From Octopus vulgaris (taxonomy: Eukaryota): a stretch of 64,000 nt of DNA. Position numbers: made by a program. The DNA is taken from positions 5,456,001-5,520,000 of the forward strand of contig OX597819.1 in NCBI GenBank assembly GCA_951406725.2. Reading direction: 5' to 3'. Numbering within the stretch: position 1 is the first letter of the stretch; every line of letters starts with the position of its first letter. This document shows positions 56,886-57,174 of this stretch, piece by piece.

Positions 56886-57122
56886 TATATATACTTTACT
56901 TTATTTAAAGCAGCAGCAAATTCAACAAAACCTGTTACTCTGAGTTTCCCGTTGCCGTTCATGGGACAGTTTGTGCTAGAAAAACTGTCCGATGAATGGC
57001 AACGGGAAACTCAGAGTAACAGGTTGTTGAATTTTCTGCTGCTTTAAATACACCATATTACTCTACCACTGATATTTGAGTACTCTTTTTTCCACCTTGT
57101 TTCATATATATGTGTTTACTCC

Positions 57123-57174
<52 letters not shown>

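What the first reader, a model, noticed from the sequence alone, without database searches (positions are those of the whole stretch)
56893..57124. Filled versus empty site shows the cassette is an insertion into TA
Seen: block 56670-57272 is a paralogue of 51207-51549 with matching unique flanks on both sides. Only this copy carries the 230-bp palindromic ribozyme cassette (arms 56902-56972 and 56982-57050), and it sits within the TA tract. This is internal evidence of mobility and target choice.
Basis: seen in the sequence. Interest (0 to 1): 0.7.

Follow-up and report, generated by a model that had tools for sequence, protein, structure and literature searches.

The report
Truncated retroelement hairpin in TA repeat
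The 231-base hairpin cassette is most likely a stunted, head-to-head insertion left by a Penelope-like retrotransposon in a TA microsatellite, which is a known and ordinary kind of genomic debris rather than a working ribozyme.

Summary
The sequence facts hold. Blocks 51207-51549 and 56670-57272 share a 29-nt left flank and a 101-nt right flank, both 100% identical. Only the second block carries a 231-nt insert (56894-57124). The insert is a 71/69-nt palindrome plus a one-sided 74-nt tail, and it sits between TA runs.

The "ribozyme" label is weak. The right arm can be drawn as a minimal hammerhead, but its core reads CCGAUGA (U4 to C) and helix II has only 2-3 pairs. The isolated arm does not adopt that fold, and the full transcript is a -119 kcal/mol hairpin.

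The same architecture recurs with unrelated sequences: inverted repeat, usually a one-sided tail, embedded in a TA tract. It applies to 9 of 13 low-copy inverted repeats in the window. The window also holds a 5'-truncated RT/GIY-YIG Penelope-like ORF abutting a TA tract and two strict minimal hammerheads. Published Penelope-like element (PLE) features match: (TA)n bias, inverted truncated copies, a tail, and priming on both DNA strands.

Two copies alone cannot tell insertion from loss. The arms differ more than the block flanks do (3 substitutions plus 1 indel in 69 nt, against 0 in 130). This is a new member of a known kind, of low interest.

The parts
56670..56698 (+). Left unique flank of paralogue block, copy B (equals 51207-51235 in copy A)
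   Evidence: 29/29 identical
56699..56893 (.). Compound (CA)n/(TA)n microsatellite left of the insert, ending in a 9-nt AT run at 56885-56893
   Evidence: Read directly; aligned to the differently structured microsatellite of copy A
56894..56901 (+). 8 nt of non-palindromic sequence between the AT run and the left arm. It contains TTTACT, which recurs at 57115-57120 near the right end of the insert.
   Evidence: Origin unexplained (possible target-site duplication or untemplated/jumped synthesis).
56902..56972 (-). Left palindrome arm, read as the inverted 5'-truncated copy lacking the tail. Its hammerhead-like core reads CCCAUGA on the minus strand.
56973..56981 (.). 9-nt spacer at the palindrome centre, read as the junction of the two truncated copies
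56982..57050 (+). Right palindrome arm, read as the direct 5'-truncated copy that continues into the tail
56985..57022 (+). Hammerhead-like motif. Helix I is CUGU/ACAG, the core is CCGAUGA (U4 to C), helix II has 2-3 pairs closed by GCAA, then GAAA, a near-palindromic loop 3 CUCAGAG, and a putative cleavage site after GUA at 57018.
   Evidence: Descriptor hit only with 1 core mismatch. Chance rate is 0.83 such hits per window. The isolated arm does not fold this way, z = +1.25.
57051..57124 (+). One-sided 74-nt tail, absent from the other arm and from the empty paralogue. It contains a small (AT)4 at 57104-57111.
57125..57168 (.). (TA)22 tract right of the insert
57172..57272 (+). Right unique flank of copy B (equals 51449-51549 in copy A)
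   Evidence: 101/101 identical
51207..51549 (+). Copy A of the block, the 'empty' site. It has the same flanks, a CA/TA microsatellite and a (TA)~10 tract at about 51430-51449, and no cassette.

Best explanation
The cassette is a dead-on-arrival product of Penelope-like element (PLE) retrotransposition into a (TA)n microsatellite. It consists of two severely 5'-truncated cDNA copies of the 3' end of one retroelement RNA, joined head to head.

Inferred mechanism, following published PLE biochemistry:
1. The GIY-YIG endonuclease cuts both strands of the TA tract.
2. Each 3'-OH primes reverse transcription near the RNA's 3' end, at one of two alternative start sites.
3. The two cDNAs grow towards each other, stop early and are joined at the 9-nt spacer.
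4. The copy primed at the outer start site keeps the extra 74-nt tail.

The hammerhead-like motif is a degenerate relic of the ribozyme that PLE terminal repeats usually carry. In a transcript spanning both arms it would be locked in a long hairpin and inactive.

Shown: the anatomy, the TA context, the recurrence of the architecture, and the presence of PLE coding and hammerhead fragments in the window. Inferred: that this particular cassette came from a PLE RNA, and the order of events relative to the block duplication.
For: 1. Anatomy: a 71/69-nt inverted repeat plus a one-sided 74-nt tail, sitting between TA runs and absent from a paralogue whose flanks are 130/130 identical.

2. Recurrence: of 13 low-copy inverted-repeat structures in the window, 9 abut a TA tract (<=10 nt) on one side and have TA within 170 nt on the other. 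Random placement gives 6.7% (binomial 1.6e-8). Six of the 9, including this cassette, have a one-sided gap or tail of 53-153 nt. A seventh (16013-16358) has a 108-nt island beyond a short 8-bp TA run. One of the 13 (11101-11254) was found by a scan restricted to TA-flanked segments; without it the count is 8 of 12.

3. The four elements compared share no significant sequence. This fits a mechanism that creates inverted repeats from any template rather than a transposase that recognises conserved ends.

4. PLEs are present in the window. ORF 29378-30019(-) matches Pfam GIY-YIG (E 2.4e-5, 25 bits against a cut-off of 22.6) and has a C-x4-C-x2-C linker upstream. It aligns to residues ~577-752 of ~750-aa proteins that carry RVT_1 plus a C-terminal GIY-YIG. 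Its 5' truncation point abuts a TA tract.

5. Two strict-core minimal hammerheads lie at 21960-22000(-) and 42547-42596(-), against 0 in 40 dinucleotide shuffles. The fragment holding the second one ends at a (TA)n tract.

6. Literature:
- PMC8557442 (passages): PLEs are highly 5'-truncated, often have an inverted truncated copy that forms inverted repeats, carry a 30-40 bp tail at one end, and favour (TA)n. A CX2-5CxxC linker is proposed to mediate that bias.
- PMC4209133 (parts 1-2 of 4): dual minimal hammerheads 100-700 bp apart on opposite strands, attributed to truncated PLEs.
- PMC11167929 (passages): a purified PLE protein cleaves and extends both DNA strands and starts reverse transcription at two adjacent internal sites, which explains the tail.
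Against: - No copy of the cassette's arm or tail is linked to a PLE ORF. No other copy exists in the window at all, so descent from a PLE is not shown by homology.
- tblastn with 13 PLE homologues hit none of the nine elements apart from one chance-level hit (E 0.43) in 45862-46477.
- The tail is 74 nt, against the 30-40 bp reported.
- The hammerhead-like motif fails two conserved features: U4, and a G10.1-C11.1-based helix II. It is thermodynamically unsupported. About 0.8 such one-mismatch hits per window arise by chance, and the descriptor was relaxed after I had seen this motif.
- Nine elements with nine unrelated sequences in 64 kb requires very many source families or promiscuous template use.
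- The arms differ by 3 substitutions and 1 indel although the surrounding block copies are identical. This is awkward if the arms were identical at birth and the insertion followed the duplication.
Confidence: 0.6

Rival explanations
1. Polarity rival (compatible with a PLE origin). The cassette was already in the block before the block was duplicated, and copy A lost it. One route is replication slippage or hairpin bypass between the TA runs that flank it.
For: The arms differ by 3 substitutions plus one 2-nt indel in about 69 nt. The block flanks show 0 differences in 130 nt. At equal rates the palindrome is therefore older than the duplication; my arithmetic gives about 0.04 for substitutions only and about 0.015 with the indel. 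The TA runs on both sides provide the direct repeats needed for slippage. That palindromes are prone to deletion is recalled general knowledge, not tested here.
Against: The numbers are small. The arms could have been unequal at birth, through two template RNAs or an error-prone RT. Gene conversion could have homogenised the flanks. A clean loss of palindrome, tail and the 8-nt stub that leaves only microsatellite is possible but not demonstrated.
Confidence: 0.3
2. The palindrome is a miniature inverted-repeat DNA transposon (Tc1/mariner or Stowaway-like, or a foldback element) that was cut and pasted into a TA dinucleotide.
For: The element is a full-length inverted repeat. The palindrome's outermost bases are TA on both sides (56902-56903 and 57049-50), so a TA duplication cannot be excluded. 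At least one TA-embedded element, 11101-11254, is symmetric with no tail.
Against: Another 74 nt on one side and 8 nt on the other are co-absent from the empty paralogue and are not part of the inverted repeat. The one-sided tail recurs in 6 of the 9 TA-embedded elements. The terminal sequences of the elements I read are unrelated by eye, and the four elements compared share no significant similarity, so no common transposase site is evident. The window holds no second copy. No transposase domain was found among the 112 window ORFs scanned.
Confidence: 0.12
3. Two-step origin without a special transposition mechanism. A simple short insertion (right arm plus tail) entered the TA tract. A later break in the fragile TA tract was then repaired by fold-back synthesis, which duplicated the adjacent arm in inverted orientation.
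For: The arm next to the tail is contiguous with it, and the other arm abuts the TA run. That AT-rich repeats are break-prone is recalled general knowledge.
Against: It needs two events at each of at least seven sites in 64 kb. Published PLE data explain the same structure in one event. There is no direct evidence either way.
Confidence: 0.1
4. The cassette is a functional self-cleaving (hammerhead) ribozyme unit, present on both strands.
For: A hammerhead-like arrangement exists at 56985-57022(+). It has the GAAA box, the A15.1/U16.1 pair, a GUA site, a 4-bp helix I and a near-palindromic loop 3. By my arithmetic, the chance of such a hit inside a given 231-nt stretch is about 0.003.
Against: The core reads CCGAUGA in one arm and CCCAUGA in the other. 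That changes at U4 and G5 cripple hammerheads is recalled from the mutagenesis literature. Helix II has only 2-3 pairs and lacks G10.1-C11.1, a feature conserved in PLE hammerheads (PMC4209133). The isolated arms fold worse than shuffles and not into the hammerhead: z = +1.25 and +1.38, with 182 and 187 of 200 shuffles folding at least as well. The two strict hammerheads in the window do fold that way. In the full cassette every core base is paired to the other arm.
Confidence: 0.05

Closest known systems
Complex inverted, 5'-truncated insertions of Penelope-like elements (Neptune, Penelope/Poseidon and Naiad clades), as described in PMC8557442 and PMC11167929
   Same: Insertion in a (TA)n microsatellite, an inverted truncated copy forming an inverted repeat, an extra tail at one end only, extreme 5' truncation, and target-site duplication obscured by the microsatellite.
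   Different: The tail is 74 nt here (53-153 nt in the sister elements) against the 30-40 bp reported. The cassette is only 231 nt with no coding sequence. No homology link to a coding PLE could be made.
Minimal type-I hammerheads of metazoan PLEs, including 'dual' motifs on opposite strands 100-700 bp apart (PMC4209133)
   Same: Short helix I (4 bp), GAAA box, A15.1-U16.1, a near-palindromic 15.2-16.2/loop 3, and two copies on opposite strands about 60 nt apart.
   Different: The core has C instead of U4, and additionally C instead of G5 in the other arm. Helix II has 2-3 pairs instead of 6-8 and no G10.1-C11.1. The hammerhead fold is not predicted for the isolated arm.
TA-targeting MITEs (Stowaway or Tc1/mariner-derived). 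The rice microsatellite-targeting element Micron is recalled from memory, not checked.
   Same: A small non-coding inverted-repeat element inside TA repeats.
   Different: The asymmetric tail is part of the inserted unit. No shared terminal motifs appear among the window's elements. No second copy was seen.

Membership tests
Penelope-like element (truncated insertion product) | ORF with a PLE-type reverse transcriptase plus a GIY-YIG endonuclease | tested here: not met
   The cassette has no ORF longer than 50 codons. tblastn with 13 RT/GIY-YIG homologues gives no hit in it. This is expected for a 231-nt truncated copy, so it does not exclude descent. The window does hold such an ORF fragment elsewhere, at 29378-29926(-).
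Penelope-like element (truncated insertion product) | Sequence continuity with the 3' end or pLTR of a coding PLE family | not testable with these tools
   No eukaryotic genome or repeat library is available. Within the window there is no other copy.
Penelope-like element (truncated insertion product) | Adjacent inverted 5'-truncated copy forming inverted repeats | tested here: met
   Arms 56902-56972 and 56982-57050
Penelope-like element (truncated insertion product) | Extension ('tail') at one end only | tested here: met
   The 74-nt stretch 57051-57124 continues only the right arm. It is longer than the published 30-40 bp.
Penelope-like element (truncated insertion product) | Insertion bias for (TA)n microsatellites | tested here: met
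   The insert lies between an AT run and (TA)22, and the paralogue has TA without the insert. Of 13 inverted-repeat structures in the window, 9 are TA-embedded, against 6.7% expected.
Penelope-like element (truncated insertion product) | Hammerhead motif in the terminal repeat (canonical EN+ clades; absent in Naiads) | tested here: inconclusive
   Only a one-mismatch motif is present.
Hammerhead ribozyme (minimal type I) | Catalytic core CUGANGA ... GAAA | tested here: not met
   CCGAUGA in the right arm and CCCAUGA in the left arm. The GAAA box is present.
Hammerhead ribozyme (minimal type I) | Helix II closed by G10.1-C11.1, 4-8 bp | tested here: not met
   Only U.G and G-C pairs plus a GCAA loop (read). 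The feature list comes from PMC4209133.
Hammerhead ribozyme (minimal type I) | Helix I, the A15.1-U16.1 pair, a non-G at position 17, and palindromic 15.2-16.2/loop 3 | tested here: met
   CUGU/ACAG, A...U, A17, and CUCAGAG (6 of its 7 bases form 3 self-complementary pairs around a central A)
Hammerhead ribozyme (minimal type I) | Match to the Rfam hammerhead covariance models | tested here: inconclusive
   No hit at E<=10. The same search also misses the two strict-core minimal hammerheads in the window, so the test has no power for this class.
Hammerhead ribozyme (minimal type I) | Self-cleavage | not testable with these tools
   Needs in vitro transcription. The predicted folds argue against it.
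MITE (TA-duplicating, Tc1/mariner-like) | Terminal inverted repeats that directly abut a duplicated TA at both ends of the inserted unit | tested here: not met
   The unit missing from the empty paralogue extends 8 nt and 74 nt beyond the inverted repeat.
MITE (TA-duplicating, Tc1/mariner-like) | Multi-copy family with conserved ends | tested here: inconclusive
   Single copy in the 64-kb window. The genome was not searchable.

The most novel reading that the evidence does not exclude
The cassette is not a dead truncated copy but a self-contained, non-autonomous hairpin element that PLE machinery copies as a unit. The differences between its arms would then be inherited rather than accumulated in place. 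That would explain why the arms are more diverged than the identical block flanks. Alternatively, the two arms were reverse-transcribed from two different RNAs by a dimeric PLE particle, which would make such cassettes a natural record of double-template priming. Either way its transcript is a 70-bp hairpin that could feed a small-RNA pathway.
Probability: 0.1. Interest if true: 0.5.

Novelty: new member of a known kind. Interest (0 to 1): 0.2.

Why it matters
For the scan, this turns an apparently striking "mobile palindromic ribozyme cassette" into ordinary repeat annotation. It is one of at least nine TA-embedded inverted-repeat insertions in this window that fit the known insertion signature of Penelope-like retroelements.

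Its modest value is as a clean natural example. A paralogous TA tract without the insert is preserved 5.4 kb away, so the pre-existence of the TA target can be seen directly. The recurring layout of inverted repeat plus one-sided tail matches what the recent in vitro finding of priming on both DNA strands from two start sites predicts. The tails here are longer than published ones, which would be worth noting in a genome-wide PLE annotation of this organism.

It also gives a practical warning. Rfam's hammerhead models miss PLE-type minimal hammerheads, so both absence and presence calls need a dedicated descriptor and controls.

Tried and rejected
- **Rfam, whole window.** At gathering thresholds only a tRNA at 37242-37315(-) was found. 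At E<=10, 389 matches came back, of which the best 150 are listed. None of those is a ribozyme, and most are microRNA-hairpin models hitting repeats.
- **Rfam, cassette.** At E<=10 only sub-threshold microRNA-precursor and similar hairpin-type hits appeared (best MIR395, 48.3 bits against a cut-off of 56). These are typical of any long perfect hairpin, so I rejected them as family evidence.
- **Second copy of the cassette.** None by blastn with word size 7 or word size 9.
- **12-mer shared with another palindrome.** The cassette shares a 12-mer with the palindrome at 52339-52529. In the pairwise test, 11 of 300 shuffles reached that score, which is not significant over six comparisons. The other five pairs among four elements were also at chance.
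- **Alignment of the four tails.** It showed nothing convincing.
- **Possible shared TTTAC motif near tail ends.** 15 of 270 TA-tract flanks have it against a 2.1% background, but 11 of the 15 come from two TA-rich repeat arrays (nine at 16484-16832, two at 7604-7638). Not pursued.
- **Coding potential.** The short frames in the nine elements were only listed and not scanned against Pfam. Of the 112 window ORFs scanned, only the GIY-YIG ORF passed a curated cut-off. The zf-CCHC, zf-RVT and YdjC hits were below cut-off.
- **First inverted-repeat scans.** My own seed scan missed the cassette because of a mismatch next to the spacer. The first BLAST version dropped self-overlapping palindromes. 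Both were replaced.
- **Not attempted.** I made no search in other genomes. Copy number, presence or absence in other individuals or species, and the organism's identity all stayed unchecked.
- **Supplementary figures not consulted.** The supplementary figures of PMC4209133 (alignments of minimal hammerheads) were not read. They could show whether C4 variants occur naturally.

Full report
**1. What is there**

Block 56670-57272 and block 51207-51549 are paralogues.
- They share a 29-nt left flank (29/29 identical) and a 101-nt right flank (101/101 identical).
- Neither flank occurs anywhere else in the window, and the DNA outside the blocks is unrelated.
- Between the flanks both copies hold compound CA/TA microsatellite. 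Its internal structure differs a good deal between the copies, so there is no base-exact empty site.

Only the second copy has a non-repeat insert, at 56894-57124 (231 nt). It consists of:
- an 8-nt stub (56894-56901);
- a left arm (56902-56972);
- a 9-nt spacer;
- a right arm (56982-57050);
- a 74-nt tail (57051-57124) that continues the right arm only.

The arms differ by three substitutions and one 2-nt indel. The insert lies between a 9-nt AT run and a (TA)22 tract. The empty paralogue has a (TA)~10 tract next to the same right flank. As RNA the insert folds into one long hairpin of -119.1 kcal/mol (z = -18; 0 of 200 shuffles fold as well).

**2. Is it a ribozyme?**

Rfam gave no ribozyme hit. 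At gathering thresholds the whole window yields only a tRNA. At E<=10 the cassette yields only sub-threshold hairpin-type hits, mostly microRNA-precursor models.

I wrote a descriptor for the minimal type-I hammerhead that Cervera and De la Pena describe for Penelope-like elements (PMC4209133; parts 1-2 of 4 read).
- With a strict CUGANGA core it finds two motifs in the window, at 21960-22000(-) and 42547-42596(-). It finds none in 40 dinucleotide shuffles.
- The first of these has every feature the paper lists: an extra base after A9, G10.1-C11.1, a palindromic 15.2/16.2 pair, a 5-bp helix I and a 6-bp helix II.
- Rfam misses both strict motifs even at E<=10. Rfam's silence on the cassette therefore means nothing.

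The cassette's right arm is picked up only when one core mismatch is allowed.
- The motif reads CUGU / CCGAUGA / a 2-3 pair helix II closed by GCAA / GAAA / CUCAGAG / U-A / ACAG.
- The shuffles give 0.83 such one-mismatch hits per window. Since I relaxed the descriptor after seeing this motif, its significance is modest.
- The other arm reads CCCAUGA.
- The isolated arms fold worse than shuffled sequence and not into a hammerhead: z = +1.25 and +1.38, with 182 and 187 of 200 shuffles folding at least as well. The two strict motifs do fold into the helix I / helix II arrangement.
- In the full cassette every core base is paired with the opposite arm.

I conclude that this is at most a degenerate relic.

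**3. The wider pattern**

The window contains other palindromes with unrelated sequences and the same layout: a TA tract, an inverted repeat, a one-sided unique tail, then a TA tract.

I assembled 13 low-copy inverted-repeat structures. Twelve came from an unrestricted self-BLAST, after dropping one pair of a 15-copy SINE and merging three interleaved pairs at 45862-46477. One, 11101-11254, came from a scan of TA-flanked segments.
- Nine of the 13 abut a TA tract within 10 nt on one side and have TA within 170 nt on the other. Random placement gives 6.7% (binomial 1.6e-8). Without the one biased entry the count is 8 of 12.
- The four misses are at 831-968, 38206-38510, 43186-43252 and 43869-44489.
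- Six of the nine, including this cassette, have a one-sided gap of 53-153 nt. A seventh (16013-16358) has a 108-nt island beyond a short TA run. Two have no tail (11101-11254 and 45862-46477).
- Arm lengths run from 25 to 227 nt.
- The halves of four of these elements share no significant similarity, and none has another copy in the window.

**4. Penelope-like elements are present here**
- ORF 29378-30019(-) matches Pfam GIY-YIG above the curated cut-off (E 2.4e-5).
- Its relatives are ~750-aa proteins with RVT_1 followed by a C-terminal GIY-YIG, and it aligns to their last ~177 residues. That is the canonical EN+ PLE architecture.
- The copy is 5'-truncated exactly where a TA tract begins.
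- The fragment holding the second strict hammerhead ends at a TA tract.

**5. How it most likely arose**

Craig et al. (PMC8557442; passages) describe PLE insertions as highly 5'-truncated, often with an inverted truncated copy alongside that forms inverted repeats. They report a 30-40 bp tail at one end only, a strong (TA)n bias that hides target duplications, and a CX2-5CxxC linker proposed to mediate that bias.

Cervera and De la Pena note dual minimal hammerheads 100-700 bp apart on opposite strands and attribute them to truncated PLEs.

The 2024 Mobile DNA paper (PMC11167929; passages) reports that a purified PLE protein cleaves and extends both DNA strands. It also starts reverse transcription at two adjacent internal sites, and the stretch between those sites corresponds to the tail.

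Put together, the cassette reads as two converging, aborted cDNAs of one RNA 3' end, one primed from each strand of a cut TA tract. They are joined at the 9-nt spacer, and only the copy primed at the outer start site carries the tail. This chain is inference. No homology links this cassette to a coding PLE, the tail is longer than published ones, and nine different sequences in 64 kb implies many source families or loose template choice.

**6. Insertion or loss?**

Two copies cannot polarise an indel. If the arms were identical when formed, 3 substitutions plus 1 indel in about 69 nt against 0 in 130 nt of block flank says the palindrome is older than the block duplication. My arithmetic gives about 0.04 for substitutions only and about 0.015 with the indel. 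That would mean copy A lost the cassette, for example by slippage between the flanking TA runs.

Alternatively the arms were unequal at birth, the flanks were homogenised by gene conversion, or the difference is chance. I rate loss from copy A at about 0.3. Either way the cassette entered a TA tract at some point, and the window-wide pattern supports that more strongly than the paralogue comparison does.

**7. Rivals**
- A TA-duplicating MITE is disfavoured by the asymmetric tail and stub, which are missing together with the palindrome in the empty copy. It is also disfavoured by the recurrence of one-sided tails and by the lack of shared termini.
- A two-step fold-back repair model needs two events at each of at least seven sites.
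- A functional ribozyme is disfavoured by the core changes and the predicted folds.

**8. Limits**

No eukaryotic genome, repeat library or population data could be searched. Copy number, family membership by homology, presence or absence in other individuals or species, and the organism's identity therefore remain unchecked. Supplementary figures of the papers were not consulted.

The following are recalled from memory and were not tested: that U4 and G5 changes cripple hammerheads, that palindromes are deletion-prone, and that the rice element Micron targets TA repeats.

**9. Verdict**

This is a new member of a known kind, a truncated head-to-head PLE-type insertion in a TA microsatellite. 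Interest is low.

Noticed in passing
window 21960-22000 (-): A textbook PLE-type minimal hammerhead. It has a strict CUGAUGA core, an extra A after A9, a G10.1-C11.1 helix II of about 6 bp, GAAA, a CG at 15.2/16.2 and a 5-bp helix I. Its minimum-energy fold shows helices I and II. It lies just after an (AAG)n run, and Rfam misses it.
   Followed up: partly
window 42547-42596 (-); fragment about 42650 to 42300: A second strict-core minimal hammerhead with a perfectly palindromic loop 3 (CGAUCG). The roughly 350-nt fragment that holds it ends at a (TA)n tract. It looks like a single, non-inverted truncated PLE terminal repeat.
   Followed up: partly
window 29378-29926 (-): A 5'-truncated Penelope-like element ORF: the C-terminal ~177 aa, with a C-x4-C-x2-C linker and a GIY-YIG domain. 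It is 36-60% identical to ~750-aa RT/GIY-YIG proteins. The truncation point abuts a TA tract. Its 3' UTR runs into (TTC)n/(ATC)n repeats, and no hammerhead was found by my descriptor within about 800 nt downstream.
   Followed up: partly
window 9223-9772; 11101-11254; 16013-16358 (+island to 16483); 32552-32975 (+tail to 33069); 35478-35739 (+tail to 35836); 45862-46477; 52263-52541; 54591-55058 (+tail to 55211): Eight further TA-embedded inverted-repeat insertions of unrelated sequence, with arms of 25-227 nt that are about 91-100% alike. Most have a one-sided tail of 64-153 nt. 45862-46477 has two interleaved inverted-repeat pairs.
   Followed up: partly
window 831-968: A 59-nt-arm palindrome with a 20-nt spacer that is not in a TA tract. 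Its left flank (about 790-825) is a run of degenerate telomere-like CTAACC-type repeats, and its right flank is the start of a SINE-like repeat.
   Followed up: no
window 22047-22172: A head-to-head inverted duplication of a tRNA-like SINE head (60-nt arms). It sits between a (GTT)n run and an (AAG)n run, immediately upstream (on the minus strand) of the strict hammerhead at 21960-22000.
   Followed up: no
window 56895-56900 and 57115-57120: The hexamer TTTACT occurs as a direct repeat at the left edge of the cassette and 4 nt from its right edge. It could be a target-site duplication of a small island in the TA tract, or chance. The empty paralogue has no such island.
   Followed up: no
window-wide (e.g. 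17397-17753, 20667-20933, 30424-30728, 41802-42103, 59665-60211, 63367-63953): Many copies of one or two SINE-like repeats whose ends run into (TA)n/(CA)n tracts. Many of the window's TA tracts may therefore be SINE tails that later served as insertion targets.
   Followed up: no
window 16484-16832: A satellite-like array in which (TA)n runs are punctuated about every 22-26 nt by GTAAA. The plus strand reads (TA)n GTAAA.
   Followed up: no
window 61852-63124 (-): Several consecutive non-repetitive open frames of 71-120 aa with no Pfam hit. By eye they resemble the C-terminal region of a non-LTR retrotransposon protein; that resemblance is from memory only.
   Followed up: no
window 37242-37315 (-): The only Rfam gathering-level hit in the window: a tRNA-like sequence (38.7 bits). 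It has a small insertion in the variable region and may be a SINE head rather than a gene.
   Followed up: no
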